From the IMG/VR virus record IMGVR_UViG_3300033077_000655: a DNA stretch of 31,529 bases. The stretch is one strand, 5' to 3'. This document shows, piece after piece, positions 4,549 to 31,529 of the stretch. Position 1 is the stretch's first letter; each line of letters begins with the position of its first letter. Position numbers and translations under genes: made by a program. Below the pieces are notes generated by a model. It searched no databases. It worked only from the letters and a program-made list of their open reading frames with translations, and was not told where the DNA came from. This stretch comes from a virus (taxonomy: Duplodnaviria > Heunggongvirae > Uroviricota > Caudoviricetes).

Positions 4549-4572
4549 ATATACATTAACAAGGAACGATCT

Positions 4573-9804: not shown

Positions 9805-10063
9805 ATTCATAGATGAACAAGACATAGTTTTGCCACCTCCGGTACGCAAGCAAATATGGAATGGTACCAAGTTTGTTCCGTTCTTGCTGTATCGTAGAAA
9901 AGGTGCTCCTGATAATGAACGAAGAGAATGGTTATGGAATACGTATGGAGGTCCAGGTGTGTACAAATATGGAAGTCATTGGGATTATTCAGATATCTTC
10001 GACGTTACATACATGGACGATAAAGTCTATATGTTTTACACAATGAAATGGGGAGCAAAATGA
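9785..10063 (+). CDS. Hypothetical protein, 92 aa
   Basis: Overlaps upstream by 20 bp and couples to the SDR through ATGA; C-terminus DDKVYMFYTMKWG. Confidence 0.7.
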   Translation: MLTPKVEFIDEQDIVLPPPVRKQIWNGTKFVPFLLYRRKGAPDNERREWLWNTYGGPGVYKYGSHWDYSDIFDVTYMDDKVYMFYTMKWGAK

Positions 10064-11037
10064 AAATATTAGTCACAGGCGGACTTGGATTGATCGGGCA
10101 CAATGTGGTCAAACGACTACAGGCACAATCACACACAGTATCCGTGATTGACAATCGCACCACATACGGAATGATTCCACAGTCTGAACTTGATTATTTG
10201 ATCGGTGAAAGACTGAAGAAAATAAAGCTATCACCATCACACTTGTATACCCGAGATATCTGTAATAGAGAATCCATCGACGACATATTTGAAATTGAGC
10301 AGCCCAATGTAGTGATTCATATGGCGTCATTTCCACGGCAGAAAGTTGTGAATGCTGACCCTGCATGGGGTTCCAGGGTCATGATGGAAGGATTGATCAA
10401 TGTGCTTGAGAGCGCCAAAAAGCATCATGTGAATCGAGTTGTGTATATTTCCAGCTCAATGGTATACGGTGACTTTGTGGATGATGTTGCTGAGGATGCT
10501 GTATGTAGGCCACAGGGACAATATGGAATTATGAAACTTGCAGGAGAACACCTTGTTAAAGACTATACTCGTAGGAGATGTTTTGATCATGTTATACTTA
10601 GGCCTAGTGCTGTATATGGTCCCTTGGACGTGGAAGACCGTGTGGTATCAAAATTCATGCTCACAGCAATGCGCGGCGGAGTGCTCCGAGTTAACGGATC
10701 AAGCGAAACACTAGACTTCACTTATGTGGATGATGCTGCTGATGGTGTAGTAGCTGCTGCACTTGTGCCTGCTGCTACCAATCAAACGTTCAACATTACA
10801 AAAAGCCACAGCGTGAGCTTGTTAGAAGCTGCCAGGATGATTATTGAGATTGTGGGCAAAGGTTCAATTGAATTGCGTGACAAAGATGCAGACTTTCCAT
10901 CACGTGGTGCATTAAACATTGATCGTGCTAGAGCAGTATTGGGATACAATCCTCAAGTTGATGTTGAAGAAGGTTTTGAGAATTACTATGGCTGGTTGAG
11001 TAAATCAAGTTATTTTACAGAACAATTATCAAAGTGA
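10060..11037 (+). CDS. NAD-dependent NDP-sugar epimerase/dehydratase (extended SDR) (start moved from 10048)
   Basis: MKILVTGGLGLIG (GxxGxxG), SSSMVYG, YGIMK (YxxxK), LRPSAVYGP, DFTYVDD. ATG10060 overlaps the upstream TGA and has GGAG upstream. Confidence 0.93.
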   Translation: MKILVTGGLGLIGHNVVKRLQAQSHTVSVIDNRTTYGMIPQSELDYLIGERLKKIKLSPSHLYTRDICNRESIDDIFEIEQPNVVIHMASFPRQKVVNADPAWGSRVMMEGLINVLESAKKHHVNRVVYISSSMVYGDFVDDVAEDAVCRPQGQYGIMKLAGEHLVKDYTRRRCFDHVILRPSAVYGPLDVEDRVVSKFMLTAMRGGVLRVNGSSETLDFTYVDDAADGVVAAALVPAATNQTFNITKSHSVSLLEAARMIIEIVGKGSIELRDKDADFPSRGALNIDRARAVLGYNPQVDVEEGFENYYGWLSKSSYFTEQLSK

Positions 11038-11690
11038 TATCGTTTCATATTACTTACTCCTCCAGTTTTTCCGCAATTTGGGCAAACAACTAATTGTTGC
11101 GGGCCTGGAGGATTCTTACGAGGACCACGTGGTCCTTTTAGTTTTGCTTTGCGGGCGTCTGCCTCGGCGCCATATTTTTCTTTATATGTTATTCCCTGTA
11201 ATGGATGAGACCCAGACAAATATTTCTTTTTCATTGTGTTAGATTGTTTAATTTTTGCTGATTCGGAATGTTTGTATCCAGCACGAGATTCCCTCCACTT
11301 TTCAATAGTTTCTGCTGATCTTATTTTTCCTTCTGCATATTTGTTTCCTCTATTAAAGTTACTTCGAGCAATACTGGCAGATTTTTTCATTATTTCATAT
11401 TGTTTTGATGTAGGTCTATGTCTTTGTTGATGGTTATTTGTTGCATTAAACGAGTTAAATGCATAAAACATTTTCCATTGGAATTTACCTATGGGCAACA
11501 TCTTAGTCAATAACCAATGGCATATAAAATGTTCTCTTGCGGTAAGTGCTACAAGATTAGATGCATCGTTTAAACCACCTAGTGATTTAGGAATAATATG
11601 ATGTCTTTCAAAATAACCAACCATTGTCCTTGCTTTTGCTCGATCAACTATGTTATAATAGCATTGAGTATATTTGTTCTGTAAATACAT
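11010..11690 (-). CDS. Free-standing HNH homing endonuclease with NUMOD3-like repeats and a C-terminal Cys/His finger (start moved from TTG11705 to ATG11690)
   Basis: ERHHIIPKSLGGLNDASNLVALTAREHFICH; basic repeats RSAETIEKW and HSESAKIKQS; terminal CPNCG...RYHFDNC. Confidence 0.88.
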   Translation of the reverse strand: MYLQNKYTQCYYNIVDRAKARTMVGYFERHHIIPKSLGGLNDASNLVALTAREHFICHWLLTKMLPIGKFQWKMFYAFNSFNATNNHQQRHRPTSKQYEIMKKSASIARSNFNRGNKYAEGKIRSAETIEKWRESRAGYKHSESAKIKQSNTMKKKYLSGSHPLQGITYKEKYGAEADARKAKLKGPRGPRKNPPGPQQLVVCPNCGKTGGVSNMKRYHFDNCSVK

Positions 11691-11695
11691 AATGT

Positions 11696-11702
11696 TATTT
11701 AT
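11696..11702 (-). promoter_or_regulatory. T4-late-like promoter candidate ATAAATA for the HNH gene
   Basis: The minus strand reads GATAAATAACATTATG: ATAAATA lies 5 nt before ATG11690. Confidence 0.4.
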
Positions 11703-11728
11703 CAATCATTCCGTTTATTGGCTATTAA

Positions 11729-12814
11729 ATGTCTAATCTTACCATTCTCTTTACTGGGCTCCAAAGACAGTATAACAATCTCCGTGAGGAGATCTTGGAT
11801 GCAACTGACATAGTGTTGCGTTCAGGAAATCTCATGGATGGCAACTACACTGCTGAGTTTGAGTCGTGGCTGGCCAAGAAGAATCGTAATGTACATGCAG
11901 TAACCTGCCATTCAGGAACACAGGCGCTGGAGATCATTGCCAGTTACTGTGCTGATAACATTCGTGATGCAGGCAAGACTCCCACAGTATTGGTTCCAGC
12001 CATGACATACCCTGCCACTGCCAATGCATTCATGCGAGCAGGATGGCAAGTGGAGATTGTGGATACTAACACATATGGATGTATGGATCCTGCATTGATC
12101 CGGGATGATCACACTCGCAGTTATGATGCTATCTGTGTGGTAGGCCTATACGGTGCTGCACTAACGCACAAATGGTATGATATGACTGATTGTTTGATTG
12201 AGGATGGTGCGCAGCATTGGCTGTCTGACAACTGCAACCGACAAGCCCCTTTTACTGCCATCAGTTTTGATCCTACCAAAAATCTCTCCAACTACGGCAA
12301 TGGTGGCGCAGTGGTTACTTCAGATTTGTATTTGGCTGAATATGCTCGTAATTGGTGCAACAACGGTAAAGCTGGTGGGCATGCTGTTGCAGGTACAAAC
12401 AGTCGCATGAGTGAGATTGACTGTGCGCAGATGATGGTTAAAACTCAGCATCTAGATGCTTGGCAACTGCGCCGAAGTCAGATAGCAAGATACTGGATGG
12501 CTAGGCTTGAAGAAAAATCCATCCGATGCTTGATTGATGCTACCAACTTTAAGGGCCATGCGTTACAGAAGTTTGTGATCGAAGTAGACAATCAAAGCGA
12601 ATTGCAACAACGACTTGCTGCTGGTCAAATTGAAACTAAAATACACTACAAGAATCCTTTGCATGAACTAACTGCATATCAAGATTGTAAAGGACCTAAC
12701 TTGCTGAGTGTGAGTTCAAGTCTAGCACGTCGCTGTGTCTCATTGCCATTCTATCCTGAACTCACTGACCTGGAAACTGACTATATCATTGATTCGGTGT
12801 TAGCTGCCGTTTGA
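11729..12814 (+). CDS. DegT/DnrJ/EryC1/StrS-family PLP-dependent sugar aminotransferase
   Basis: HSGTQALEI, VPAMTYPATANA, VVGLYG, LIEDGAQ, SFDPTKNL (Schiff-base Lys), GGAVVT, NSRMSEID, SLPFYPEL. Confidence 0.93.
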   Translation: MSNLTILFTGLQRQYNNLREEILDATDIVLRSGNLMDGNYTAEFESWLAKKNRNVHAVTCHSGTQALEIIASYCADNIRDAGKTPTVLVPAMTYPATANAFMRAGWQVEIVDTNTYGCMDPALIRDDHTRSYDAICVVGLYGAALTHKWYDMTDCLIEDGAQHWLSDNCNRQAPFTAISFDPTKNLSNYGNGGAVVTSDLYLAEYARNWCNNGKAGGHAVAGTNSRMSEIDCAQMMVKTQHLDAWQLRRSQIARYWMARLEEKSIRCLIDATNFKGHALQKFVIEVDNQSELQQRLAAGQIETKIHYKNPLHELTAYQDCKGPNLLSVSSSLARRCVSLPFYPELTDLETDYIIDSVLAAV

Positions 12815-14591
12815 AGAACGCATAGCTGGCCAACCACTCCCATTCGTAGCTTTTCTTTAGTTGATCAAAGTCACCGCCTACTTCATCATAGTAGTCTAGG
12901 GCATCTTGTGCGCCTGCTGCACTTAGTTCACTGCGGGTGTGTTGATTTGGTGTTAGCCATTGCTGTATACGATATTCATTTTCCACATCAGGCAAGCTGG
13001 CTCTCAACTTCAACACTTCTCTAAAGGCTGTACGCCAAGTGCTCCAATCCGATGTGTTATAAGCAGCTATTCCACTCACAATAGGAACCACTTCGTGCGG
13101 TGAATCTAGTGTAAAGTCTAATCCAACGCCTGGGTTATCCAATACCAATTGCCGATTGTATGCAATCATGGCCTGATGTCCGTATGTCAATTCATTGCAT
13201 AGATTTCGAGCATGGAAGATATAGTGCTTGGCTTCTTGCATACGATCAGGTTGCCATGAAAAGTCAAAATCAATATCCACTTCCAGTTTGGCAAACACAG
13301 CAAAGAACCAAGGTGTTGTACTGACTCTTGCTGCTGCATGATATGCTGCTGCACGGCCGTTGATACTGTCTACTCGTACAAGTCGATTTTCTTTGGGCAA
13401 TAAAATCAAACGCTTGAGATTGTGTTCAGCGTTGGATTCTCCGTTGGAGATGAATACAATATCCATGAGTGGATCTTTCAGCATTAACTGTGTTTTGTCA
13501 ATGTATGGATAATCATACAATTGTGTTTTTATGTATGGTATGGCAGACTTTGGAACAACTACACTGCTGGCTCCTGGATTCAGCGGAACTATAGTCTTGG
13601 TTTGCTCTCTCCAAAGTGGCACAGTAACCAAGTTGGTACTTAGATAGTCTGAATTGGTAAACACTGCTAACGGTCCTGCAAAATCTTTAGTTTTAACTGC
13701 ATCAATGTGACAGTCCTGATCATGTTGGACCACAGGCATGGGTCTACGTGGTATTGAGGTATTGATAAAATTGCAATCATACCATTCTAACAGTGCAAAT
13801 TGTTCTGCTCTATTTGCAAAAGTTGGAACATGCATAAAGAATGTGTCACCAAACTTTTGATCGTCGCTGGCAAATACATGTAGCATACCAGCTTGCCATT
13901 GTTCAGGATGCCACGAAAAATCAAAGTTACTATAGTCGCAGATGCTACTGCATATCCATATAAACTCATATTTAGACCCAATGCTTTTTGCTATGCGTAT
14001 AAGAGTATCTCTATAGTTGTCAAAATATCGCACACGCCGTGTGGTGTTGGGTATTTGACCAACTGCTCCATCTAAATGATCAATTTCATAAATGGCAGTA
14101 GCCACACGATCAGTGTGTATTTTTATTTGATCTACAAATTTGATATCTGTTGCACCTGCCACACGATATTGTGGACCGCCGGTGCGTTGATGTTGTGTAC
14201 CAAATTGATATATGTAAGCCGGCTCTGTTGTGTCTGGATGCCAAGACCAATCAAATGATTGTGTATCTACTCCTGCAGGAACAGTCCAATGTGTATGGTC
14301 ATCGAGACGTTGTAGCACGGGTGCAGAACAATAATTTGTATCAGTATAGCCTATCTTAGGCACAAGATATGTGCCTGAATCTTTTTGCCATTGACTGGGC
14401 CACACATGTCTTTGATGAGATTGCCATGGCACTGGTTCATAAAGGAAATCAAACCCTGTGTAATCCACTAAGTATGACACCATCCAGAAGAATCTAGTAC
14501 GTGATAACTCCTGCGCTTGCTCAATTGACTCTACTGATTGTTCATGCAAGAACAATCCTGGTTTGGTTCCAATATAAAATATATCAAACAT
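12786..14591 (-). CDS. 601-aa protein built from repeated, degenerate GT-A-like modules
   Basis: Four FD(F/W)x(W/Y)xP modules. The last ~220 aa are clearly paralogous to 28890..29822 (RVDSINGRAAAYHAAARVSTT vs RVDGVKGSDAAHKAAADASTT; TWRTAFRE vs AWRAGFRE). Confidence 0.8.
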   Translation of the reverse strand: MFDIFYIGTKPGLFLHEQSVESIEQAQELSRTRFFWMVSYLVDYTGFDFLYEPVPWQSHQRHVWPSQWQKDSGTYLVPKIGYTDTNYCSAPVLQRLDDHTHWTVPAGVDTQSFDWSWHPDTTEPAYIYQFGTQHQRTGGPQYRVAGATDIKFVDQIKIHTDRVATAIYEIDHLDGAVGQIPNTTRRVRYFDNYRDTLIRIAKSIGSKYEFIWICSSICDYSNFDFSWHPEQWQAGMLHVFASDDQKFGDTFFMHVPTFANRAEQFALLEWYDCNFINTSIPRRPMPVVQHDQDCHIDAVKTKDFAGPLAVFTNSDYLSTNLVTVPLWREQTKTIVPLNPGASSVVVPKSAIPYIKTQLYDYPYIDKTQLMLKDPLMDIVFISNGESNAEHNLKRLILLPKENRLVRVDSINGRAAAYHAAARVSTTPWFFAVFAKLEVDIDFDFSWQPDRMQEAKHYIFHARNLCNELTYGHQAMIAYNRQLVLDNPGVGLDFTLDSPHEVVPIVSGIAAYNTSDWSTWRTAFREVLKLRASLPDVENEYRIQQWLTPNQHTRSELSAAGAQDALDYYDEVGGDFDQLKKSYEWEWLASYAFFKRQLTPNQ

Positions 14592-15714
14592 GATTAGAAT
14601 TGACGAAATTTACGAAAATACATTTTTGTCGTGGGTTAAACAAAATTTACCTAATACAGCCATCTACTATCACGATACGTTTGGCCGCAGCGACCCCGAA
14701 AGCATATTATGTAGAAGTTTTAGTACAGCAAAAGACGAAACTAGTTTCATTTATTTCTTTGATCAAGAACCGTTAATCTTGGGGTATCATCAATCCACTT
14801 TTGATAGCGTTAAAGAATGTAACATGATAACTAATGAATATGGCAATAGAGTGAGAAAAAAGGGCATTGTTGTGGTCAGTGAAACTGCCAGTGACAACAT
14901 GGATTATATATGTAAACAACAAGAATTGCAACCTTTTTATTATTTCTTTCATGGGTGGGCTGTACTAGATTGGTATCGAGGATATAATCGAACTTTTTTA
15001 ATAACTCCCTGGCAACAGAGACAAATTAAAAAAACGTTCTTTAGTGCAAATCGAATCATTGGCGGACTTAGACAGCATCGAGTATTGATGTTGTATCATT
15101 TTGAAAAACTAGGCCTTATGCATAATTGGATAAGTGCTAGTGCAATATGTCCAGCTGAACATATCGATATCAAAGAGATTGCTAATCATTACGTCAACCA
15201 GTATCCTGACATTGTTGATGTTATTAGCAAGATAGATCTACCCAAACTATTCCCCGGTGAGGACACGCCTCGAATGAGTAGTTGTTGGTTAGATCAATTT
15301 GAACTCTGCGCTGAAAGTTTGGTGTATCATGTGACAGAAACTGTGTATACCGGACGCAGATTACAGCTTACAGAAAAAACATTCAAACCCATAGCACTAG
15401 GTATGCCATTTGTACTCACAGCCACGGCAGGCAGTTTAGAATATCTTCGCAGTTATGGGTTTAAAACATTTGGAAATTTTTGGGACGAAAGTTATGATCT
15501 TGAAATTGACGATTTTGCCCGAGCTGAAAAAGTAGCTGCGGTATTGAAAAAATTAGATGACTTATCTACCTCTGCAAAACAAGAATTATTCGAAGCATGT
15601 TGGCCAATCATTGAACACAATTGGAACTGGTTCTATCAAGGTAACTTTGAATCTGTATTGTGGCAAGAACTGTCAGACATGTTGTATTCAATCAAATTAT
15701 ATTTGGCCCCATGA
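14590..15714 (+). CDS. Putative glycosyltransferase, GT10/GT-B-like paralogue 1
   Basis: HVTETVY...LTEKTFKPIALGMPF...LRSYGFKTF...DESYD resembles the FEN...TEK donor-binding motif of GT10 fucosyltransferases (inference). Confidence 0.6.
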   Translation: MIRIDEIYENTFLSWVKQNLPNTAIYYHDTFGRSDPESILCRSFSTAKDETSFIYFFDQEPLILGYHQSTFDSVKECNMITNEYGNRVRKKGIVVVSETASDNMDYICKQQELQPFYYFFHGWAVLDWYRGYNRTFLITPWQQRQIKKTFFSANRIIGGLRQHRVLMLYHFEKLGLMHNWISASAICPAEHIDIKEIANHYVNQYPDIVDVISKIDLPKLFPGEDTPRMSSCWLDQFELCAESLVYHVTETVYTGRRLQLTEKTFKPIALGMPFVLTATAGSLEYLRSYGFKTFGNFWDESYDLEIDDFARAEKVAAVLKKLDDLSTSAKQELFEACWPIIEHNWNWFYQGNFESVLWQELSDMLYSIKLYLAP

Positions 15715-16898
15715 TTTATATAGCAATTGACCATATCCATCCAGTATCACGTAGGCCTATGCCCAATGGAATACCCGAGCATCAGCACGATCAGTTGGAT
15801 TACATGGATGGTCGACGTTTAGATTTTCCTCGAATTATTTACTATCTCCGCGATTGCAAAATATCTTCTCGTATAATTAGTACCGCCGATGCACCCAATC
15901 ATGCATGGTATCCAATGGTGTTAGGATGGTTTGACTTTTCACAAGACTATTTTGGTATGATCAGCAATGCTGCTTTTATGCGTATAAAGAAAAAAGAAAT
16001 GAAACTGGTATTCACTTATCACGAAGGTGACCATCCTGGTTCTATACGCAACCGACTGGATGATCTTTGTCAGCAGTATAACATTGATCCTGAATTAGTA
16101 TGGTTGATTTCTGGTAATTCCTCCGCAGATCAATATCACAATACTGTGTACTGGCCTGAATTGGAATTCATGTACTGGCGTACTGTTGATCGTGAGTCGG
16201 GGGCAAAGTATCATTTGAATACAAGATCACGTGCGTATACTGGACTGTGTAGAATTGACAAACTGTGGCGCAAGGTATTCATGAGTGAGCTGTGGAGTCA
16301 GGGATTACACAATCGTGGATACTTTAGTTACAATCAACATCTGTTGGGGAGTGAAGATGATTACTTTGGATGTGCATTAAACAACAATTATCTTGCTGCA
16401 AGTCAATCAAGAGTGGATGATTTTATTGCGGCAGGCCCGTTCCGTGTGGACAATCTTGATACTGTTGCCCATAACAAATACAATCTCAACATGACAGAAA
16501 TGTATTCTGACAGTTATTTTAACATTGTGTTAGAAACCATGATTGATGTAGATGCGTCCAGCGGGCAGTTTGTTACAGAAAAAACATGCAAACCCATATT
16601 CAACAATCAATTCTTTGTGGTAGTTAGTTCGGTTGATCACCAAAGACACTTGCGTGATTTAGGATATCGGACCTTTGGCCGTTGTATAGATGAAAGTTAT
16701 GATTCAATTTCCAACAATCAAGATCGATTTGAAGCTGTGTTAGAATTAACTAAAAAGTTAGCCAGGACCGAGCTAGACCAATTGCATGAGTTATATACGG
16801 AGTTGGCTCCCGAGATACAACATAATTCTCAGATATTCATTGAAGGTATGGGGTATCGATTACAAGCTGTAGTAGATCGTATTAACTACAAACAGTAA
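15711..16898 (+). CDS. Putative glycosyltransferase, GT10/GT-B-like paralogue 2 (start moved from 15660)
   Basis: YFNIVLET...VTEKTCKPIF...LRDLGYRTF...DESYD; ATG15711 overlaps the upstream TGA. Confidence 0.6.
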   Translation: MIYIAIDHIHPVSRRPMPNGIPEHQHDQLDYMDGRRLDFPRIIYYLRDCKISSRIISTADAPNHAWYPMVLGWFDFSQDYFGMISNAAFMRIKKKEMKLVFTYHEGDHPGSIRNRLDDLCQQYNIDPELVWLISGNSSADQYHNTVYWPELEFMYWRTVDRESGAKYHLNTRSRAYTGLCRIDKLWRKVFMSELWSQGLHNRGYFSYNQHLLGSEDDYFGCALNNNYLAASQSRVDDFIAAGPFRVDNLDTVAHNKYNLNMTEMYSDSYFNIVLETMIDVDASSGQFVTEKTCKPIFNNQFFVVVSSVDHQRHLRDLGYRTFGRCIDESYDSISNNQDRFEAVLELTKKLARTELDQLHELYTELAPEIQHNSQIFIEGMGYRLQAVVDRINYKQ

Positions 16899-23375: not shown

Positions 23376-23383
23376 ATATTAAT

Positions 23384-25090: not shown

Positions 25091-26418
25091 AATGAGTTGT
25101 ACCAAGTTTTTAATGCCGGAAATACCATGCCAAAGTCTTTGCCGCGACGTTGATCATATTGTGTATAAAATTGCTTAAAGTCGTTGTGTAACTTAGGCAT
25201 TTCAAATGATTCACTATGCGGAGTTTTTACCACGTCAAGATAATCAATCAGTCGTTGTAACTGGTTAATTTCATGTTCATGCAAAGATTCACTGTGTTGA
25301 TTAACCACAAGCCAGGACTCTAATGTGTGTGCATACTGCATACGTAAATTGTCGGGCAATACCAATGGTGATTGAAAACTAGGAAAGCGCAGTATGTTCA
25401 ATGTAAAACTCAATGCATCGCGCCCATATTCAGTTTTCCATTGCAACATGCATTCTAAAAATTGATCTAATGTATCCAGGCACAATGCATTGATTGTGTT
25501 CATTACATGTATACCTCGAAATTTTCCGCTGTCCAACAGTCGTTCTACATTGTTGGCCCAGTCATCCCAGACCAATCCATCTCTAATGTATTCGGCTTGT
25601 GCCCCAATGCTTTCATTGGAAGTATATATATCTACCTCGAGACCTTGTATACTGGTCATTAGCCGATCAAGATCTACTGCTGTGCCCAAGTTTGAGTTGA
25701 TGGCCAATCGTGTGTGACTGCGCCCGGGATTGTTTTTGAACCAGTCAATTAATTTCCAGGTATCACCACTCATCAGTGGCTCGCCTCCGGTTATTCGAAG
25801 TTCTTGTAGTGTTTGATGAAGATCCGTTTCCCACCATTTAAAAAATGCTTCAACATAGGGATTAGATTCACCAAACTTATACAGTTGACTAGATTCATGT
25901 ATATGAGTAAAGTGATTGCGGCCATCACTAACCAACCCTGTGTATGCTCCATGCTTTCGTATATCATTGACCCAGGTACTGCTGAAAGCAGGATTGCAAT
26001 AACTACAAGCAAACTGGCAAGTGCGGTCAAACGCAATTTCAAGTGTGCGTAAATTGACATCTTGATCAACTGGGGTGTTAAAGGCTTCATTTAATAACTC
26101 TATAGGGTAAATTTTACTCTTGTACACACGGTCACTGATGGCATCACGTCCAATGTCTTCGATCTTCCAGCAATATTCACAGCCCGACGGCCGATCACCA
26201 TGCTGCATTTGATCACGTTCAAATTTCTTTTTTGTGGTGTTATGTAATGCTGATGGATTGTGTTTGATATCATTTACGTTTATAGCATGAGCCGGGGGAT
26301 GATGACAACTGGTAGTCATGCCACTGCCTAACCAGATGGTAGCATTGTACCATTTGGCTGCACAAAAACTTTCACTTAGATTGTCTAGTACAGTGCGTTT
26401 AAAATCTAAATCGTTCAC
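25087..26418 (-). CDS. Radical SAM protein with N-terminal twitch/SPASM-like domain (subtype B)
   Basis: CAAKW...TSCHHPP, CEYC, CQFACSYC, TGGEP, INSN; GTG start overlapping the upstream TGA. Confidence 0.92.
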   Translation of the reverse strand: MNDLDFKRTVLDNLSESFCAAKWYNATIWLGSGMTTSCHHPPAHAINVNDIKHNPSALHNTTKKKFERDQMQHGDRPSGCEYCWKIEDIGRDAISDRVYKSKIYPIELLNEAFNTPVDQDVNLRTLEIAFDRTCQFACSYCNPAFSSTWVNDIRKHGAYTGLVSDGRNHFTHIHESSQLYKFGESNPYVEAFFKWWETDLHQTLQELRITGGEPLMSGDTWKLIDWFKNNPGRSHTRLAINSNLGTAVDLDRLMTSIQGLEVDIYTSNESIGAQAEYIRDGLVWDDWANNVERLLDSGKFRGIHVMNTINALCLDTLDQFLECMLQWKTEYGRDALSFTLNILRFPSFQSPLVLPDNLRMQYAHTLESWLVVNQHSESLHEHEINQLQRLIDYLDVVKTPHSESFEMPKLHNDFKQFYTQYDQRRGKDFGMVFPALKTWYNSL

Positions 26419-27530
26419 AAGTTATTTTGTATAAAGTTGGAGAAACGGGACGGAAATTCATCACGTATCTGTGGGCCTATATCAGCCATATATTGTTGAT
26501 TATACTTACTTATTGACTGGGCTGCGACCAGGAATTGATTCAGATCGCTTGAACATAAATCTTCAACCACTTGTGCCATTCGGTCTAACCGATCTTGATT
26601 GTTGTCTATTAGATCAAATGATTCGTCAATGAGAGTGTGATAAGTTTTGAATCCCATGTTATGTAGATCTCTATAGAATCCACGATTGGCCACAACCACA
26701 AACGGGTGACCCATAGCAATGGGTTTATAAATCTTTTCAGTCCGAAAACTATAAGGATAATCAAATACAGTTTCAGTTACCAAACTAAAATAGGTATCAA
26801 TGTACGGTTCGGCACGAATGTATACATCGCCCCACTGGTTGTTGAACAGTTCGTGCTTGATAAACGATTGTTGATATTGATCTTTAACACCGTCGAGATA
26901 TTGTTCTACTTCATATTCAACTGGCAATAGCTGTATCTCGGATGGTCTGCTTAGTAGATCAGTTTGATATGTGTGATGATATGCAGGAGTTGTATCTAGA
27001 TTGGTCCAAAGTGCATGTTCCAATAAATGCGCATCACGCATCTTTTCTATCATGTATTTTCTGTGAGGACGAGTGCGTCCATTTAAGAATAAAAATTTGT
27101 AAGGTTTGTTTAGTTTATGGTATATTTCATCTACACGAGTACCTTGCTCAATATTTTGTTCATAGCCCGAGACTCGATTGAGATAGCAATCGTAAACCAA
27201 ACAATTGAGTTCAGGTTCCATCTCCCCGCCTCCTATCAACAGTAATTTCCTTTGAGCAACTAGCTCTAGCAGTCCCAGTCGTTGACATTGAAGTTTAAGT
27301 ACAATCGACCCTTCACTTGGGTTGGCCAACACAGGTAAAAAGAATCCTGTAGTGGCCAATTCTTTTATCTTTATGTAATGTTGATTTACTGTTTGTCTGG
27401 CAAAGATTGTGATTGAATTGGCCTGCGGCTCATGCTGATCAAAATCCCAAAATGTATCATCTACTAGATGTTTGATTTCGGGATAAATTTCGCAGGCGGT
27501 ATCGCAAATGATCTTTCGATTATCTAGCAT
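26415..27530 (-). CDS. Putative glycosyltransferase, GT10/GT-B-like paralogue 3
   Basis: KFLFLNGRTRPHR, YFSLVTETVF...RTEKIYKPIAMGHPF...GFKTY...DESFD; no radical SAM motif. Confidence 0.6.
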   Translation of the reverse strand: MLDNRKIICDTACEIYPEIKHLVDDTFWDFDQHEPQANSITIFARQTVNQHYIKIKELATTGFFLPVLANPSEGSIVLKLQCQRLGLLELVAQRKLLLIGGGEMEPELNCLVYDCYLNRVSGYEQNIEQGTRVDEIYHKLNKPYKFLFLNGRTRPHRKYMIEKMRDAHLLEHALWTNLDTTPAYHHTYQTDLLSRPSEIQLLPVEYEVEQYLDGVKDQYQQSFIKHELFNNQWGDVYIRAEPYIDTYFSLVTETVFDYPYSFRTEKIYKPIAMGHPFVVVANRGFYRDLHNMGFKTYHTLIDESFDLIDNNQDRLDRMAQVVEDLCSSDLNQFLVAAQSISKYNQQYMADIGPQIRDEFPSRFSNFIQNNL

Positions 27531-28884
27531 GTAAACTACACTGTCTCCACCAAGTGATCATTTCTGGAAAGGTGTTTTCAAAGTTTGTACCTCTACGGCG
27601 GTCGTGTTCGGTAAAAAATCTATAGAAATCTGCCTGTGCAGTGGGTTGCGGCGGTGCCGACCTCATCCAGGCTATGTCACGTTCAAGACGTTGAACTTCG
27701 TAGTCTTTGAACCCGTGAAACGGATCATCAGCAGTTTCAAGATTTGCCAACATAAAGTCTCTGGCCTGTTCTAGTTTTGAAGCATAGCTTTCTGGTAGGG
27801 TCTGTAGACTTTGCCAAGCAGGTTGGCGTAGTACAGGCGTGTCAAACCATACACGTTGATATGTTTTACTGTGTGTGCAACGTAGAGCCAGTATCCATTG
27901 CATCAGTGGCAAAAATCCTGTTACACTTAGATTGTTCATGGTGACAATAAATGTAAGACTGTTGCGATAAGGAATGTCCGTGAGATATGTTTCTACATTG
28001 CGTTGTAATCTTTCAAAATTCAATCCATGACGTATGTATTCAGCTTGAGGTCCTATGCCTGAATCAAGACTCACATACTGCATGAAGTGTTCAATGTTGG
28101 TATTACATAGTCGTTGAACATGGTCAAAGTATTTTTGTGATAGTTCGGGCTCTACACTAAAATTTGATGTGACTGCTAAATGCAAATCACTCTTGGGATG
28201 TTCTAACACATAATCAAACACTCGATAGGTGTTTCGATCCATCAAAGGCTCACCACCGGTCATGCGAAAGTGTTTGAGTTCTGGATACAGGGTGGGCCAC
28301 CAGGACCAGAAGGCTTCTACATAAGGGTTGTGATCACGGGCAGGGATAGGCCTGCGATGGCCGCTAAAGTGCTCAGCAGCGTTATGAGGAACCAAAGTAG
28401 GAAAGGCGCCGTGGCGTTCAACTTCTTGTTGCCAGCTAGAGCTAAACTGTGGGCTACAATAGCTGCATTTAAGATTGCAAGCATTGTTGAAATTGACTTC
28501 CACATACGACGGTACAACATCTTCTTCTCCGGTTGAGTTTTTTATCTGTTCAAAATCTACTGCTGCCCAAGGTTCGCCGGATCTGTAATGACGATCACTC
28601 AGCCGGCCAAGATCTTCCATGTTCCAACAATAACTACATTCACTAGGACGTTGTTGTTGCAGCATTATCTTGCGTTGTGCTTTTTTATGCTGGGTATTAT
28701 GCAAAGCCGCAGGATTGATTGCTATTGCATCAGGATCTATTGAATGCAATGGCGGATGATAGCATGAGTTATTTAACCCTGTGGTAAGATGTAAGCTGAC
28801 CTGTTTCCATTTGGCCAAACATAATGCCGGACCAAGATCTGCATGCATCTGTTCAGCAGACGATAGAAAATTGCTTTTGCTCAC
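27520..28884 (-). CDS. Radical SAM protein with N-terminal twitch/SPASM-like domain (subtype B) (start moved from 28953 to GTG28884)
   Basis: CLAKW...NSCYHPP, CSYC, CNLKCSYC, TGGEP, VTSN, VSLDS. GTG28884 lies 5 nt after the upstream stop with GAAGG upstream. Confidence 0.9.
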   Translation of the reverse strand: MSKSNFLSSAEQMHADLGPALCLAKWKQVSLHLTTGLNNSCYHPPLHSIDPDAIAINPAALHNTQHKKAQRKIMLQQQRPSECSYCWNMEDLGRLSDRHYRSGEPWAAVDFEQIKNSTGEEDVVPSYVEVNFNNACNLKCSYCSPQFSSSWQQEVERHGAFPTLVPHNAAEHFSGHRRPIPARDHNPYVEAFWSWWPTLYPELKHFRMTGGEPLMDRNTYRVFDYVLEHPKSDLHLAVTSNFSVEPELSQKYFDHVQRLCNTNIEHFMQYVSLDSGIGPQAEYIRHGLNFERLQRNVETYLTDIPYRNSLTFIVTMNNLSVTGFLPLMQWILALRCTHSKTYQRVWFDTPVLRQPAWQSLQTLPESYASKLEQARDFMLANLETADDPFHGFKDYEVQRLERDIAWMRSAPPQPTAQADFYRFFTEHDRRRGTNFENTFPEMITWWRQCSLHAR

Positions 28885-28889
28885 AAGAA

Positions 28890-29822
28890 TTACCAACCTT
28901 CTTGCTGACGTATCACATCTATTTCTCTTACCATTACACCACGGTTGTGCCAATTGCTGCGATAATGATGTTTGAAAAATGCACTTGCTTCTACTGTGAG
29001 CATGTGCATGGGCAGATCCAATTGTGTATGCAATTCGTTGGCAATGTTGTTGCTCACATGTTCAGGTTGTTCATCTTTTACAGTATTCCATAGTTCTGCT
29101 AATGCATCAAAATTTTGTACCTGTAAGTAATCCCAGTTTGTCAGCATGGTCATATATGTGCCTTGTCGGGCGCCAGCTATGGCCCAGTATCCGTAGTCTG
29201 CATCTGCTCCCACATTGTGCCAAATAGTAAGATGGTCAAGATTGCGTTGATGCACCCGAGCTTGAAATTCAGTCACAGTGGGTCTGCGACCACGATCTAA
29301 GCACATCTTTACACCTTCTCTAAATCCTGCACGCCAAGCATGGAATGCTGATCCATTAGGGTATGTGGTTGAATAGCAGTCATGCATGGACCAGTACAGC
29401 GGATCAAAACAAAACTCAACTTGTGTTTCTGTGCGACCGTCGGTGTTTTCATGTGTGTGCATGGCTTGCACATAGGTTCTGGTCCAGGAACTCAATCCAC
29501 CATTGCCGTACATGAGTCCATTCACATGGTTACGTGCTTTCCATCTAAACACAGCATGTTCATGATCTTCAGTGGGGAATGACAGTGTTTGATTGAAGAA
29601 TTTTGGATCAGGAAGATTGTCACCATCAATCAAGATAAAACGTTCTGTGGTGCTGGCATCAGCTGCTGCTTTATGGGCAGCATCACTGCCTTTGACCCCA
29701 TCTACTCGTGTGGCCCAGGGCACCATATTCCTAATTTTAACCCAGTGTTCTTCCTTCTGTGGTTCATCATATGTTAGATAAACGCAATCCAAGTCTGCTA
29801 TATCAATTTGTGTCAACGACAT
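28890..29822 (-). CDS. Putative GT-A fold glycosyltransferase (start moved from 29867)
   Basis: CVYLTYDEP, RVDGVKGSDAAHKAAA, FILIDGDN (DxD), GLMYGNGG, AWRAGFREGVKM. Confidence 0.65.
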   Translation of the reverse strand: MSLTQIDIADLDCVYLTYDEPQKEEHWVKIRNMVPWATRVDGVKGSDAAHKAAADASTTERFILIDGDNLPDPKFFNQTLSFPTEDHEHAVFRWKARNHVNGLMYGNGGLSSWTRTYVQAMHTHENTDGRTETQVEFCFDPLYWSMHDCYSTTYPNGSAFHAWRAGFREGVKMCLDRGRRPTVTEFQARVHQRNLDHLTIWHNVGADADYGYWAIAGARQGTYMTMLTNWDYLQVQNFDALAELWNTVKDEQPEHVSNNIANELHTQLDLPMHMLTVEASAFFKHHYRSNWHNRGVMVREIDVIRQQEGW

Positions 29823-30147
29823 TTTGTTTTTTCTTCCAATATTGGCCAGGTTGCTGTGCAACCACAACAGTCACATCATTTGAATGGCAAAGTACACCAG
29901 ACTTGCCGGGTACAAGTTTAGTTATTCTGGTTTGTCGCTGGCGTACTAACTTTCCGTCAACGATCTTGACTGAGTGGTCTTGTAATGCAAACTGCTCAGG
30001 AGTGATATCAATATGCTTACCAGGTAAATCTTCATGGCTATAAAATACCGGCTCGCCAACATCATTGTAGTAGAGTCTATAATACACAGGTTTGGGGGCG
30101 GGCCACTGAATGTTTTTCCAAACTTCCAAAAATTCTTCTTCAGTCAT
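29803..30147 (-). CDS. Hypothetical protein, 114 aa (start moved from 30180)
   Basis: ATG30147 with AAGGA upstream, overlapping the upstream stop; YRLYYNDVGEP motif. Confidence 0.7.
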   Translation of the reverse strand: MTEEEFLEVWKNIQWPAPKPVYYRLYYNDVGEPVFYSHEDLPGKHIDITPEQFALQDHSVKIVDGKLVRQRQTRITKLVPGKSGVLCHSNDVTVVVAQQPGQYWKKKQNVVDTN

Positions 30148-30913
30148 TGCGCCAATCCTTCTGATGGTAATGCACTGCACCCCACTGTGCTACAGTGTTG
30201 ATTCTCAACGGATTCAATTCCCATACTAATTCTTTTGTCCAATCGTGTGTTTGAGTCGGAATCATATAGCGTTTCATGTGTACAATACATGGATATGTTG
30301 CAAAGGGCATGGTCACACGCTCCGGGCCCATGATCTGTGCTGCCATAGCATATACCAAATCAGTTGATGCAACTTCATCGGGAAATTTTAACAGAGTTTT
30401 GTAGCTGGTCCAATGTTCAAAAATCTTTCGAACCAATTGAAAAAACTCTTGTGCAGTTTCACTCACCCTCCAGTATGTTATAGCGTTATAGACGTCTGGT
30501 AAGTGGTTGGTATCAAATACTTTTCTGTAAAATCTGCTGTCGGCTGGTTGATCATAAAAGTTTCTAGCACCAGTGGATATCACAACATCCTGATGTTCAA
30601 ACATAGTCCACCAATGATCTATAGCACTGGCAATGACCATATCTGCTTCCAGTTTGATAGTTTGTCTGAACGGGCTTGCACCAAACACTTGCCAATCATT
30701 GGCATAAGGATTGTCACTTGGTAGAAATGCAAAAGTTTTATGATAGTTGAATAGGTCACAATTGTATTCTTCAGCATTGGTTAACAAACAGATTTCAGCA
30801 TCAGGATGGAAATGACGAATAGACCCAGCCAACTGATTGGCACAAGCAACATAGTCTACTGTGTCAGAGTTTTGTGCAGTAATAACATATCCGCGTTCAG
30901 ACTGGATTGGCAA
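30140..30913 (-). CDS. Putative GT-A/GT8-like glycosyltransferase
   Basis: RGYVITAQN, SIRHFHPDAEICLLT, SPFRQTIKLEADM (DxD position), YNAITYW, VHMK; TTG start with AGGAG 7 nt upstream. Confidence 0.6.
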   Translation of the reverse strand: MPIQSERGYVITAQNSDTVDYVACANQLAGSIRHFHPDAEICLLTNAEEYNCDLFNYHKTFAFLPSDNPYANDWQVFGASPFRQTIKLEADMVIASAIDHWWTMFEHQDVVISTGARNFYDQPADSRFYRKVFDTNHLPDVYNAITYWRVSETAQEFFQLVRKIFEHWTSYKTLLKFPDEVASTDLVYAMAAQIMGPERVTMPFATYPCIVHMKRYMIPTQTHDWTKELVWELNPLRINTVAQWGAVHYHQKDWRND

Positions 30914-31529
30914 TGATATCTCCTAGATGTTTCTTACCCATGGCATGAAAGTCCATGCTGTGCCAATCCATCTTTTTTGGTTGACCTTGATCTTGATACT
31001 TGATTTCAAAATGATCTGCACCAATCTGAGAGAGCACATGCTCGGGCAGCACACTGGCCAAACTCCAAGGTATGTTGTGTACGGTTAATGTGTGTCCGCT
31101 TACTATGCCCAAGGCAATGCTGAGTGCATAATCATTGCGATAATTGGAACCTTGCATGTGATATAAATCTCGGTAGTGTGTCCAGTTTTGTTTGACCATG
31201 TTCATACAATCAAAGATGTATTGTGCAGTATTGCTTTTACGGAACATCATCACTGTGGCCCACCACATGGGGAATTTATTCTGCCCAAAATAGTTTAGCC
31301 CTTCAAACTGATTGACAGCAGCAACGTCCCAGGCCAGGCGATGACACGCAAAGTCTTGCGACATATCAAGCACATTTTTTAATTCACTACTGCAAACAAC
31401 ATAGTCAGCATCTAGCACTAGGGTTTGATCCCAAGGAGTTAGACTATATGCATCTGTTCGGCCGGCATTGTACCATGTGATAGTTTCTTTGTAATCATCA
31501 AAATATCGTATGCCGTCGCTTGCAGGATC
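30897..31529 (-). CDS. Putative GT-A/GT8-like glycosyltransferase, 5'-truncated by the window edge
   Basis: The frame is open from 31529 (DPASDGIRYFDDYKETITWYNAGRTDAYSLTPWDQTLVLDADY). It has TPWDQTLVLDADY (DxD), WATVMMFRK and RNDYALSIA, and is paralogous to 30140..30913. Confidence 0.65.
   Translation of the reverse strand, partial: DPASDGIRYFDDYKETITWYNAGRTDAYSLTPWDQTLVLDADYVVCSSELKNVLDMSQDFACHRLAWDVAAVNQFEGLNYFGQNKFPMWWATVMMFRKSNTAQYIFDCMNMVKQNWTHYRDLYHMQGSNYRNDYALSIALGIVSGHTLTVHNIPWSLASVLPEHVLSQIGADHFEIKYQDQGQPKKMDWHSMDFHAMGKKHLGDIIANPV

What the first reader, a model, noticed from the sequence alone, without database searches (positions are those of the whole stretch)
10060..31529. Phage-like supercluster for radical-SAM tailoring of amino-sugar glycans (main candidate system)
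Seen: within ~21.5 kb there is an NDP-sugar SDR, a DegT aminotransferase, a carbamoyltransferase, six radical SAM paralogues, about seven glycosyltransferase-like genes, a 33-aa peptide and two unknowns; the cluster continues past the window edge. Established: these families together make up aminoglycoside/aminocyclitol tailoring chemistry (BtrR is a DegT-type aminotransferase, BtrN a twitch radical SAM dehydrogenase, TobZ an O-carbamoyltransferase). Inference: the virus builds an unusual aminated, carbamoylated, radically oxidised or epimerised glycan. The acceptor could be virion proteins, the host surface (superinfection exclusion) or DNA bases (anti-restriction). I know of no characterised viral pathway with this many radical SAM enzymes, but related genes may already be annotated in uncultured phage genomes.
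Basis: partly seen in the sequence, partly recalled or inferred. Interest (0 to 1): 0.88.

Follow-up and report, generated by a model that had tools for sequence, protein, structure and literature searches.

The report
Jumbo-phage radical-SAM sugar-tailoring gene block
An uncultured freshwater giant phage carries a real, widely conserved block of soluble sugar-building enzymes with six (in the window seven) copies of a never-studied radical SAM enzyme type; its product and target are unknown, and its hidden 33-residue peptide belongs to the carbamoyl-adding enzyme, not to the radical SAM enzymes.

Summary
Window 10048-31529 encodes an NDP-sugar SDR, a DegT aminotransferase, a TobZ/NovN-type O-carbamoyltransferase, six paralogous radical SAM enzymes (a seventh lies at 7902-9416), seven glycosyltransferase-like genes in three families, a translated 33-aa peptide, two unknowns and one private HNH homing endonuclease.

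The contig is viral: about 36% of a roughly 350-kb T4-like jumbo phage from river and lake metagenomes. Gene order is conserved in at least 80 viral contigs. In a close relative the block follows baseplate and giant fibre-like virion genes. No cluster protein has a membrane segment.

All seven radical SAM enzymes pass NCBIfam NF033640 (N_Twi_rSAM), a family with an N-terminal four-Cys twitch domain and no known reaction.

New here: the peptide's invariant ELRKRDPFIY end travels with the carbamoyltransferase. The pair also occurs in phages without the radical SAM block, between primase and DnaB helicase, and unannotated in cultured Ralstonia phage RsoM2USA. That weakens a RiPP reading. It recalls the SxtI-SxtK pairing, but homology is not shown.

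Best reading (about 0.4): cytoplasmic assembly of an aminated, carbamoylated, radically oxidised glycan, probably on a virion fibre protein. This scan has flagged the same cassette in at least 44 other genomes, and the literature mentions it only in passing.

The parts
7902..9416 (+). Seventh N_Twi radical SAM paralogue with a 125-aa N-terminal extension. It lies outside the finding, next to ThyX.
   Evidence: NF033640 at 206.9 bits (cut-off 170). CxxxCxxC at residues 236-243. Rarely at this place in relatives.
9466..10063 (+). Two small conserved unknown ORFs (112 and 92 aa) that precede the SDR.
   Evidence: Homologues sit at the same place in 16 and 8 relatives. No family hit.
10048..11037 (+). 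Extended-SDR NDP-sugar enzyme, epimerase-like.
   Evidence: PF01370 at 1.7e-42. Best solved relative is epimerase 6zl6 at 6e-27, followed by UDP-Glc 4-epimerases and UDP-GlcA decarboxylases. The active-site strand reads SSS, not the TDE of 4,6-dehydratases, and YxxxK is present (motif rule from memory).
11010..11705 (-). HNH homing endonuclease inserted between SDR and DegT; private to this genome.
   Evidence: phrog_655 at 6.3e-52 and PF01844. No homologue in 80 related loci, where DegT and SDR are adjacent.
11729..12814 (+). DegT/DnrJ/EryC1-type PLP sugar aminotransferase.
   Evidence: PF01041 at 2.5e-56, full length. Nearest NCBIfam models are PseC, WecE and DesI types, all below their cut-offs.
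12786..14591 (-). 601-aa phage-only protein with three FDFSWHPD-type motifs and a C-terminal domain of GT-A-like fold.
   Evidence: No Pfam, PHROG or PDB sequence hit. The whole model is poor (pLDDT 51), but residues 372-515 match GT-A and nucleotidyltransferase folds at Z 7-9.2 in all 50 top rows. Present in 58 relatives.
14590..16898 (+). Two paralogous GT10-like (putative GT-B) transferases: 374 aa (14590-15714) and 412 aa (15660-16898).
   Evidence: Their C-terminal 92 aa are 37% identical to each other and to 26415-27530. No Pfam or PDB sequence hit. The third paralogue has an ESM Atlas GT10 lead of only 0.80. An invariant E..TEK..KP block is present.
16882..18363 (-). O-carbamoyltransferase of the NodU/TobZ/NovN/GdmN family.
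   Evidence: PF02543 and PF16861. phrog_1601 at 2.8e-90. Family profile against PDB: NovN 1.3e-102, GdmN 1e-95, TobZ 7e-68, over the full length.
18360..18461 (-). Translated 33-aa basic peptide ending ELRKRDPFIYK; partner of the carbamoyltransferase.
   Evidence: Present in 78 of 80 relatives. Codons 13-33 show 16202 synonymous against 1731 non-synonymous pairwise differences. Directly upstream of the carbamoyltransferase in 47 of 79 motif-retrieved loci. Found beside 66 of 76 profile-retrieved carbamoyltransferases that have upstream flank.
18458..19498 (-). 346-aa conserved unknown, probably an enzyme, with many invariant His/Glu/Asp/Cys residues.
   Evidence: 61-91% identical in at least 152 viral contigs. 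AF2 model pLDDT 82.7. No Foldseek PDB hit. Borderline cyclophilin-like barrel (Z 7-8) with an inserted four-helix bundle.
19491..26418 (-). Five N_Twi radical SAM paralogues in a row: 19491-20786, 20767-22011, 21975-23375, 23384-25105 and 25087-26418.
   Evidence: NF033640 at 284.5, 342.1, 190.2, 398.8 and 296.6 bits. Paralogues are 18-33% identical to each other, while each is 66-72% identical to its orthologues (40% for 21975-23375).
26415..27530 (-). Third GT10-like paralogue (371 aa).
   Evidence: Present in 66 relatives.
27520..28953 (-). Sixth N_Twi radical SAM paralogue.
   Evidence: NF033640 at 309.8 bits. 33% identical to 25087-26418.
28890..29867 (-). 325-aa protein related to the GT-A-like domain of the 601-aa protein. 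In other phages it follows the carbamoyltransferase.
   Evidence: 27% identity over 194 aa to residues 367-544 of the 601-aa protein, E 1e-4. Sits next to the carbamoyltransferase in L093, L107, L111, L112, L140, L151 and L159.
29803..30180 (-). 125-aa conserved unknown.
   Evidence: Homologues at the same place in 16 relatives. No family hit.
30140..31529 (-). Two paralogous GT8-like nucleotide-diphospho-sugar transferases: 257 aa (30140-30913) and a second (30897-31529) cut by the contig end.
   Evidence: ESM Atlas leads of 0.96-0.97 to GT8/Nucleotid_trans clusters for the 257-aa protein. The two are 24% identical, E 9e-6. The cut gene is 273 aa in relative G001.

Best explanation
This is a late-module accessory block of a freshwater T4-like jumbo phage. 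It builds and tailors an unusual glycan in the host cytoplasm.

Inferred steps:
1. The epimerase-like SDR and the DegT aminotransferase supply a modified amino-sugar nucleotide.
2. Seven soluble transferase-like proteins (GT10-like, GT-A-like, GT8-like) assemble an oligosaccharide.
3. Six orthologue-stable N_Twi radical SAM enzymes carry out distinct oxidative steps on sugar or nucleotide-sugar carbons. Each has a radical SAM cluster plus a fully Cys-ligated N-terminal twitch cluster. Likely reactions are dehydrogenation to a ketone that feeds transamination, epimerisation, or C-C bond formation.
4. The TobZ/NovN-type enzyme, together with its 33-aa PFIY peptide partner, O-carbamoylates a hydroxyl.

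The most likely acceptor is a virion protein, namely the giant fibre-like structural protein encoded just upstream in relatives.

Shown here: viral origin, family memberships, conserved synteny, soluble proteins, translation-level selection on the peptide, and the peptide-carbamoyltransferase linkage.

Inferred only: every reaction, their order, and the acceptor.

My odds: about 0.85 that this is a sugar or small-molecule tailoring pathway at all; about 0.4 that the acceptor is a virion protein.
For: Viral origin:
- DNA polymerase phrog_262 at 1.4e-194 and protease phrog_4871 on the same 125.6-kb contig.
- The record is classed as a virus, 36% complete.

Conserved block:
- Homologues of the 346-aa protein occur in at least 152 viral contigs.
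- The same gene order holds in 80 loci, from the radical SAM array through the 346-aa gene, peptide, carbamoyltransferase, GT10-like genes and 601-aa gene to DegT and SDR.

Sugar chemistry:
- SDR, DegT and carbamoyltransferase assignments.
- GT-A-like fold of the 601-aa protein's C-terminal domain; GT8-like leads.
- Variable extras in relatives are amidinotransferase (AGAT/StrB1/SxtG type, 1.7e-16), SGNH-like proteins and a P-loop kinase, all typical tailoring enzymes.

Radical SAM enzymes:
- All seven pass NF033640.
- Four invariant N-terminal Cys plus CxxxCxxC and GGE.
- The N-terminal part aligns weakly with BtrN's twitch region.
- Orthologues are 66-72% identical against 18-33% between paralogues, so each paralogue has kept its own role.

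Cytoplasmic action: no 19-residue window reaches Kyte-Doolittle 1.6 in any cluster protein.

Fibre link: in relative G001 the block follows, on the same strand, a baseplate wedge gene (phrog_10646), a 4724-aa virion protein (phrog_10938, with a phrog_38233 tail-fibre segment) and small virion proteins. This matches the 'host recognition cluster' of pelagimyophages, which holds glycosyltransferases and radical SAM cassettes (PMC7029224).
Against: - No acceptor was identified, and adjacency to fibre genes is weak evidence in T4-like hypervariable islands.
- No member of NF033640 has a known reaction, so sugar substrates are assumed.
- The nearest solved radical SAM relatives by sequence are a mix of peptide maturases (8vpo, SkfB), viperin, BlsE and BtrN.
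- The GT10-like family has no significant Pfam or PDB sequence match.
- The SDR is not a 4,6-dehydratase, so the source of the keto-sugar for DegT is open.
- The same genome has a separate 7-deazaguanine-plus-sugar island (earlier notes), so DNA glycosylation exists as a theme in this phage.
Confidence: 0.42

Rival explanations
1. The block makes a free, or only transiently carried, small molecule: an aminoglycoside- or aminocyclitol-like oligosaccharide bearing amino, guanidino and carbamoyl groups. The phage would use it during infection, for example to shut down host translation or to block competing phages.
For: - The enzyme set mirrors aminoglycoside and saxitoxin tailoring. It includes a DegT aminotransferase, a TobZ/NovN-type carbamoyltransferase, an amidinotransferase of the StrB1/SxtG type in 38 relatives, a twitch radical SAM type reminiscent of BtrN, and a kinase and SGNH enzymes in relatives.
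- All proteins are soluble.
- The carbamoyltransferase's solved relatives all act on small molecules.
Against: - Seven transferase-like genes, with numbers that vary between relatives, fit a glycan on a surface better than one defined metabolite.
- No exporter or self-resistance gene was seen in the block.
- The block sits in the structural/fibre module.
Confidence: 0.2
2. The radical SAM enzymes modify a protein or peptide directly, through crosslinks, epimerisation or Ser/Cys oxidation as anSME does. The substrate would be the fibre protein or the 33-aa peptide (a RiPP-like product), and the transferases then glycosylate it.
For: - The nearest solved relatives include the peptide maturases 8vpo (1.2e-9) and SkfB (4e-7).
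- A strongly conserved peptide lies inside the operon.
- The 346-aa neighbour has a borderline cyclophilin-like barrel, and the peptide has an invariant Pro.
Against: - The peptide follows the carbamoyltransferase, not the radical SAM genes. In 17 of 79 loci it sits between primase and DnaB helicase with no radical SAM gene in the stretch, and only 27 of 79 loci have any.
- No RiPP recognition element or peptidase was detected by Pfam in the block.
- The similarity to peptide maturases covers only the generic radical SAM core.
Confidence: 0.13
3. The block remodels the host cell surface (LPS or capsule) to exclude superinfecting phages, as proposed for pelagimyophage glycosyltransferases.
For: This is the interpretation offered in PMC7029224 for glycosyltransferases in the host recognition cluster. 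GT8-like enzymes are common in LPS synthesis.
Against: No membrane protein, flippase, polymerase or lipid-carrier transferase is present in the block. The enzymes would have to feed host machinery. The radical SAM set is conserved across phages that must have different hosts.
Confidence: 0.12
4. The product decorates phage DNA, as a glycosylated or carbamoylated base that protects against restriction.
For: ThyX lies nearby at 7224-7892. In other phages the peptide-carbamoyltransferase pair sits among replication genes and a 2OG oxygenase. The genome already invests in base modification (earlier notes).
Against: No DNA-binding, base-flipping, hydroxymethylase, DNA kinase or DpdA-type gene is in the block. 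The primase-helicase gap is a known insertion spot in T4-like genomes (my own knowledge), so that context need not be functional.
Confidence: 0.08

Closest known systems
NCBIfam NF033640, N_Twi_rSAM (twitch domain-containing radical SAM protein)
   Same: All seven radical SAM proteins score above the curated cut-off over the full model. They share the N-terminal four-Cys domain, CxxxCxxC and GGE.
   Different: The family is a name without a reaction. I found no paper on it. Here five to seven distinct orthologue groups sit together in one phage operon.
BtrN (butirosin) with BtrR: a twitch radical SAM dehydrogenase feeding a DegT-type aminotransferase
   Same: A radical SAM core plus one fully Cys-ligated auxiliary cluster. 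The Cys spacing is like BtrN's twitch (spacing recalled from memory; weak alignment). A DegT enzyme lies in the same block.
   Different: The twitch domain is N-terminal, not C-terminal. Similarity is marginal (5e-4). There are six paralogues instead of one, and the substrate is unknown.
TobZ / NovN / GdmN / NodU / SxtI O-carbamoyltransferases
   Same: Full-length homology: NovN 1.3e-102, GdmN 1e-95, TobZ 7e-68. Both Pfam domains are present and the His/Asp metal site is invariant.
   Different: About 490 aa against 570-700 aa. It is phage-encoded and paired with a soluble 33-aa PFIY peptide. The acceptor is unknown.
SxtK / Pfam DUF5989: small proteins encoded next to cyanobacterial O-carbamoyltransferases (SxtI-SxtJ-SxtK)
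   Same: A small protein encoded beside a homologous carbamoyltransferase (34-40% identity to ours). It carries a PFIY motif at the C-terminal end and a basic amphipathic N-terminus. Its function is unknown in the literature (PMC2679770, PMC2885083).
   Different: DUF5989 proteins are about 53 aa, have a transmembrane helix and end APFIYTLF. The phage peptide has no hydrophobic helix. hhalign aligns only six columns (probability 14%), and a DUF5989 HMM scores phage peptides no better than shuffles.
Virus-encoded cytoplasmic glycosylation of virion proteins (Mimivirus fibril cluster, chlorovirus capsid glycans, mycobacteriophage capsid and tail glycans)
   Same: Virus-encoded soluble sugar-nucleotide enzymes and transferases placed near structural genes, including an SDR plus a PLP aminotransferase (my own knowledge; PBCV-1 and Mimivirus transferases appear among the fold matches).
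   Different: None of those systems has radical SAM enzymes, a carbamoyltransferase or the PFIY peptide. Here the glycan itself has not been observed.
Host recognition cluster of pelagimyophages (Zaragoza-Solas et al. 2020, PMC7029224)
   Same: A hypervariable island beside fibre genes in T4-like aquatic myophages. [quoted passage not shown]
   Different: That paper describes the island only at annotation level and proposes host O-chain modification. It reports that its freshwater fonsimyophages lack radical SAM genes, whereas this freshwater jumbo phage has seven.

Membership tests
NF033640 N_Twi_rSAM | Whole-protein score above the curated cut-off of 170 bits, with full model coverage | tested here: met
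   Scores of 190.2-398.8 bits for the six genes in the finding and 206.9 bits for 7902-9416.
NF033640 N_Twi_rSAM | CxxxCxxC radical SAM motif preceded by an N-terminal Cys-rich twitch domain | tested here: met
   Invariant C9, C28, C74, C77, then C123, C127, C130 and GGE in the alignment of the seven paralogues. Pfam SPASM hits lie N-terminal to the Radical_SAM hits.
NF033640 N_Twi_rSAM | SAM cleavage and a defined reaction | not testable with these tools
   No characterised member found.
BtrN-type twitch radical SAM dehydrogenase | Twitch domain C-terminal to the radical SAM core | tested here: not met
   The auxiliary-cluster Cys residues precede the CxxxCxxC motif in all seven proteins.
BtrN-type twitch radical SAM dehydrogenase | Significant sequence similarity to BtrN | tested here: inconclusive
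   Family profile against 4m7t gives E 5e-4 on the core motif and 3e-3 on the twitch part.
TobZ/NodU/CmcH O-carbamoyltransferase | Carbam_trans_N (Kae1-like) plus Carbam_trans_C (YrdC-like) domains above the Pfam cut-offs | tested here: met
   127.7 and 158.4 bits against cut-offs of 24 and 27. Profile against NovN, GdmN and TobZ gives 1e-102 to 7e-68.
TobZ/NodU/CmcH O-carbamoyltransferase | Conserved His/His/Asp metal site of the Kae1-like domain | tested here: met
   H107, H108, H111 and D130 are invariant in 23 phage homologues. Their assignment as the metal site is from memory.
DegT/DnrJ/EryC1 sugar aminotransferase | Full-length Pfam match and a PLP-binding Lys | tested here: met
   PF01041 at 191.9 bits, profile positions 3-359 of 360. 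A Lys sits in the SFDPTKN segment (its role is inferred).
NDP-sugar 4,6-dehydratase (RmlB type) | Active-site Thr-Asp-Glu before YxxxK; score above the TIGR01181 cut-off | tested here: not met
   117 bits against a cut-off of 365. The strand reads SSS. The best solved relatives are 4-epimerases and UDP-GlcA decarboxylases.
GT10 fucosyltransferase-like | Match to PF00852 or to a solved GT10 structure | tested here: inconclusive
   No Pfam hit for any of 29 members and no PDB sequence hit. ESM Atlas lead of 0.80. An invariant E..TEK..KP block resembles the GT10 motif (the resemblance is from memory).
GT-A fold nucleotide-diphospho-sugar transferases (601-aa and 325-aa proteins) | GT-A-like Rossmann domain | tested here: inconclusive
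   Residues 372-515 reach Z 7-9.2 against GT-A transferases and nucleotidyltransferases, in all 50 top rows, but the model has low overall confidence. The 325-aa protein aligns to this domain at E 1e-4.
Pfam DUF5989 (SxtK-like) | Sequence match to the family profile | tested here: not met
   No match in the genome. hhalign probability 14% over 6 columns. An HMM built from 11 members gives a real-peptide maximum of 8.5 bits against a shuffled maximum of 12.6.
Pfam DUF5989 (SxtK-like) | Encoded beside an O-carbamoyltransferase; PFIY near the C-terminus | tested here: met
RiPP cluster with radical SAM maturases | Precursor peptide genetically tied to the maturase, with a recognition element or peptidase | tested here: not met
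   The peptide co-occurs with the carbamoyltransferase with or without radical SAM genes. No RRE or peptidase domain was found in the block.
Cellular surface-polysaccharide locus (Wzx/Wzy or ABC type) | Membrane flippase, polymerase and initiating transferase; cellular contig | tested here: not met
   No hydrophobic segment in any protein. Viral contig.

The most novel reading that the evidence does not exclude
Two novel readings remain open.

(a) The N_Twi enzymes perform a series of radical reactions on sugars that has no precedent in glycan biosynthesis, such as multiple C-C or C-O couplings or epimerisations on one oligosaccharide. That would make a new class of virus-made glycoconjugate or aminoglycoside-like compound.

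(b) The PFIY peptide is a so-far unrecognised small subunit, carrier or acceptor of O-carbamoyltransferases. It would be a soluble counterpart of SxtK, docking through PFIY. This could also explain what SxtK does in saxitoxin biosynthesis.
Probability: 0.25. Interest if true: 0.85.

Novelty: new variant of a known kind. Interest (0 to 1): 0.62.

Why it matters
The N_Twi radical SAM family is very abundant in aquatic viromes. Searches saturated at 8000 protein clusters, yet the family has no known reaction.

Five to seven stable paralogues in one operon imply a multi-step radical pathway on a sugar or sugar-like scaffold. Working it out would add new enzymology and a new kind of virus-made glycoconjugate, possibly one that shapes host recognition by giant phages in lakes and oceans.

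The peptide-carbamoyltransferase pairing gives a concrete, testable handle on a question open since 2008: what the small proteins next to SxtI-type carbamoyltransferases do. A cultured phage that carries the pair, Ralstonia phage RsoM2USA, is available for the test.

Tried and rejected
- Complex prediction of the 346-aa protein with the peptide returned no verdict (median 0.05). It is not evidence either way.
- Megablast of the block against cultured phages found no match.
- tblastn of the peptide against cultured phages found no match. This is probably low-complexity masking, because the ORF is present in RsoM2USA.
- A genome-contig scan with one radical SAM protein found no relative. The alignment of paralogues was too divergent for that tool, so the cellular context of NF033640 remains unexamined.
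- Two large protein searches were saturated by phage orthologues and gave no cellular names.
- The genome-contig scan for the peptide motif gave 29 hits where about 50 are expected by chance. Seven are true peptides, all on MAG contigs that look like mis-binned phage.
- Sigma-70-type promoter sites were no more frequent than in shuffles, and terminator-like sites were only modestly more frequent (19 found against 12.6 ± 3.5 in shuffles) without marking operon boundaries. No T4 late-promoter TATAAATA motif is present.
- No tRNA was found in the window.
- The model of the 601-aa protein is poor outside its C-terminal domain.
- The Foldseek PDB search for the 346-aa protein was empty. The cyclophilin-like match is borderline (Z 7-8), so I do not build on it.
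- No RNA holder is listed among public runs; this says nothing on expression.
- A ribosome-arrest or leader-peptide role was considered. It fits the invariant C-terminus and the variable N-terminus. I rate it below a protein-partner role because in five loci the peptide follows the carbamoyltransferase, and in many an SGNH-like gene lies between the two.

Full report
**What is there**

The window is the last 31.5 kb of a single 125,567-bp contig with no terminal repeat. The contig carries a phage family-B DNA polymerase (phrog_262, 1.4e-194) and a phage ATP-dependent protease (phrog_4871). It is held as a virus record estimated at 36% complete. Its DNA recurs in riverine and freshwater metagenomes.

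The gene map from Pfam, PHROGs and NCBIfam runs as follows:
- ThyX at 7224-7892
- a radical SAM gene at 7902-9416
- two small unknowns
- an SDR at 10048-11037
- an HNH homing endonuclease at 11010-11705
- DegT at 11729-12814
- a 601-aa unknown at 12786-14591
- two paralogous transferase-like genes at 14590-16898

A 14.6-kb minus-strand array without intergenic gaps then runs from the contig end down to 16882. In order it holds:
- two GT8-like genes
- a 125-aa unknown
- a 325-aa protein
- a radical SAM gene
- a GT10-like gene
- five radical SAM genes
- a 346-aa unknown
- the 33-aa ORF
- the carbamoyltransferase

**Radical SAM enzymes**

All seven pass NCBIfam NF033640 (N_Twi_rSAM) above its curated cut-off (190-399 bits). 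Their alignment keeps four N-terminal Cys residues (C-x16-19-C-x38-52-C-x2-C), then CxxxCxxC and GGE. The Pfam SPASM hits lie before the Radical_SAM hits.

The auxiliary cluster thus appears fully Cys-ligated. In BtrN and anSME that arrangement goes with electron transfer in oxidative reactions (my own knowledge).

- Paralogues are 18-33% identical to each other.
- Each is 66-72% identical to its orthologue in other phages (40% for 21975-23375).
- The duplications are therefore old and each copy has kept its own job.

A family profile finds only generic relatives among solved structures: 8vpo (a cyclopropylglycine synthase study, PMC10878394), viperin, SkfB, BlsE and, marginally, BtrN including its twitch part. 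I found no paper on the family. It is very abundant in metagenomes; two searches saturated at 8000 clusters.

**Sugar enzymes**

The carbamoyltransferase is a full-length member of the TobZ/NovN/GdmN family (1e-102 to 7e-68 against solved structures).

The SDR is epimerase-like. Its best solved relatives are a 4-epimerase (6zl6), UDP-Glc 4-epimerases and UDP-GlcA decarboxylases. It lacks the Thr-Asp-Glu of 4,6-dehydratases.

The seven transferase-like genes fall into three families.
- **GT10-like, three genes.** They share an invariant E..TEK..KP block. They have no significant Pfam or PDB sequence match and only a 0.80 language-model lead to GT10.
- **GT-A-like, two genes.** The 601-aa protein's C-terminal domain has a GT-A-like fold (Z 7-9.2 in all 50 top rows, on a model that is poor elsewhere). 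The 325-aa protein aligns to that domain.
- **GT8-like, two genes.** This rests on language-model leads of 0.96-0.97.

No protein in the block has a hydrophobic segment.

**Conservation**

The 346-aa protein has homologues at 61-91% identity in at least 152 IMG/VR contigs. In 80 fetched loci the order is kept:
- radical SAM array
- 346-aa gene
- peptide
- carbamoyltransferase
- GT10-like pair on the other strand
- 601-aa gene
- DegT
- SDR

The same ThyX and DUF2201 neighbours follow.

Variable inserts in relatives are also tailoring-type enzymes:
- an amidinotransferase of the AGAT/StrB1/SxtG type, in 38 loci but absent here
- several SGNH-like families
- a P-loop kinase
- extra radical SAM genes

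The HNH gene is absent from every relative, so it is a private homing-endonuclease insertion.

In relative G001 (192 kb, 81% identity) the block follows, on the same strand:
- a baseplate wedge gene
- a 4724-aa virion structural protein with a tail-fibre-like segment
- small virion proteins

This is shown. It matches the 'host recognition cluster' described for pelagimyophages, which notes glycosyltransferases and radical SAM cassettes without assigning a function (PMC7029224).

**The peptide**

The ORF at 18360-18461 is real.
- It is present in 78 of 80 relatives; the other two loci end before it.
- Over codons 13-33 there are 16,202 synonymous against 1,731 non-synonymous pairwise codon differences.

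A degenerate DNA pattern for RKRDPFIY found more than 120 further viral contigs. In these the N-terminal half varies in sequence and length, but ELRKRDPFIY(K/R) is invariant.
- The next gene is the carbamoyltransferase in 47 of 79 loci.
- In five loci the peptide directly follows a distant carbamoyltransferase.
- Seventeen loci have the order primase, peptide, carbamoyltransferase, with a DnaB helicase following in 13 of them and no radical SAM gene in the stretch. Pfam domains were checked on one of them, L119.
- Only 27 of 79 loci have any N_Twi gene.

In the reverse direction, I fetched 80 loci with a carbamoyltransferase profile (50-87% identity, more than 590 contigs). Of these, 66 carry the peptide upstream on the same strand, and four others lack upstream flank.

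Cultured Ralstonia phage RsoM2USA has the peptide as an unannotated ORF. It lies upstream of an SGNH-like gene and its carbamoyltransferase, which is 45% identical to ours.

The peptide is therefore the partner of the carbamoyltransferase. It is not evidence for a RiPP pathway.

I tested that lead.
- **In favour.** Pfam DUF5989 occurs in 37 of 251 cyanobacterial genomes. It is about 53 aa, has a transmembrane helix and ends APFIYTLF. It lies about 0.4 kb from carbamoyltransferases 34-40% identical to ours.
- **Against.** Profile comparison aligns only the PFIY columns (probability 14%). A DUF5989 HMM does not separate phage peptides from shuffles.

Homology is not shown. What the two share is PFIY and the partner enzyme. 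SxtJ and SxtK have no known function (PMC2679770, PMC2885083).

**Interpretation**

The shown facts fit a cytoplasmic pathway that makes and decorates an amino-sugar-containing glycan or sugar-like molecule. The acceptor is not established.
- **Virion protein, about 0.4.** I favour this because the block sits in the fibre module and all enzymes are soluble. There is also precedent in viruses that glycosylate their own structural proteins.
- **Free aminoglycoside-like metabolite, 0.2.** This fits the enzyme repertoire, including the amidinotransferase in relatives.
- **Direct protein or peptide modification by the radical SAM enzymes, 0.13.**
- **Host-surface remodelling, 0.12.**
- **DNA decoration, 0.08.**

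**Novelty and score**

Virus-encoded glycan clusters are known, and this cassette has been noticed at annotation level. This scan has flagged it in at least 44 other genomes with the same general reading. What remains new is the chemistry: a radical SAM subfamily with no known reaction, present as five to seven stable paralogues.

I rate the finding as a new variant of a known kind, with interest 0.62.

Noticed in passing
window 11010-11705 (-): An HNH homing endonuclease (phrog_655) is wedged between SDR and DegT. It is absent from all 80 related loci, so it is a recent private insertion.
   Followed up: partly
L241 (Ralstonia phage RsoM2USA, MG752970), about 6030-6137: An unannotated 36-aa ORF ending RKQDPFIYK lies between RsoM2USA_201 and _200, two genes upstream of carbamoyltransferase RsoM2USA_199. 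This gives a cultured system for testing the peptide.
   Followed up: partly
L119 and 16 similar loci (L092-L166): In another phage group the peptide-carbamoyltransferase pair sits after a Toprim primase, with a DnaB-like helicase following in 13 of the 17 loci. A ResIII/DEAD helicase and a 2OG-Fe(II) oxygenase lie nearby, and no radical SAM genes are present.
   Followed up: partly
L082:13040-14071 and 37 other relatives: An amidinotransferase (AGAT/StrB1/SxtG type, about 344 aa) lies next to the GT10-like pair in 38 related cassettes but is missing from this window.
   Followed up: partly
L215 and L228 (Haliscomenobacter sp. MAG, contigs of 148 and 183 kb); L217, L216, L222, L232, L236: True copies of the phage peptide occur on contigs binned into bacterial and archaeal MAGs. 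These are most likely jumbo-phage contigs mis-binned as cellular.
   Followed up: no
window 2193-5868: A MoxR-type AAA ATPase (2193-3278) and a DUF2201 metallopeptidase-like/VWA protein (4537-5868) flank the block. The DUF2201 gene keeps this place in several relatives.
   Followed up: no
window 7902-9416 and 23384-25105: Two of the radical SAM paralogues carry extra N-terminal domains (about 125 and 175 aa) with no family match.
   Followed up: no
window 18458-19498: The 346-aa protein has about 120 invariant residues across 26 phages, many of them His, Glu, Asp or Cys. Its only fold resemblance is a borderline cyclophilin-like barrel with an inserted helical bundle. It looks like an enzyme of a new family.
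   Followed up: partly
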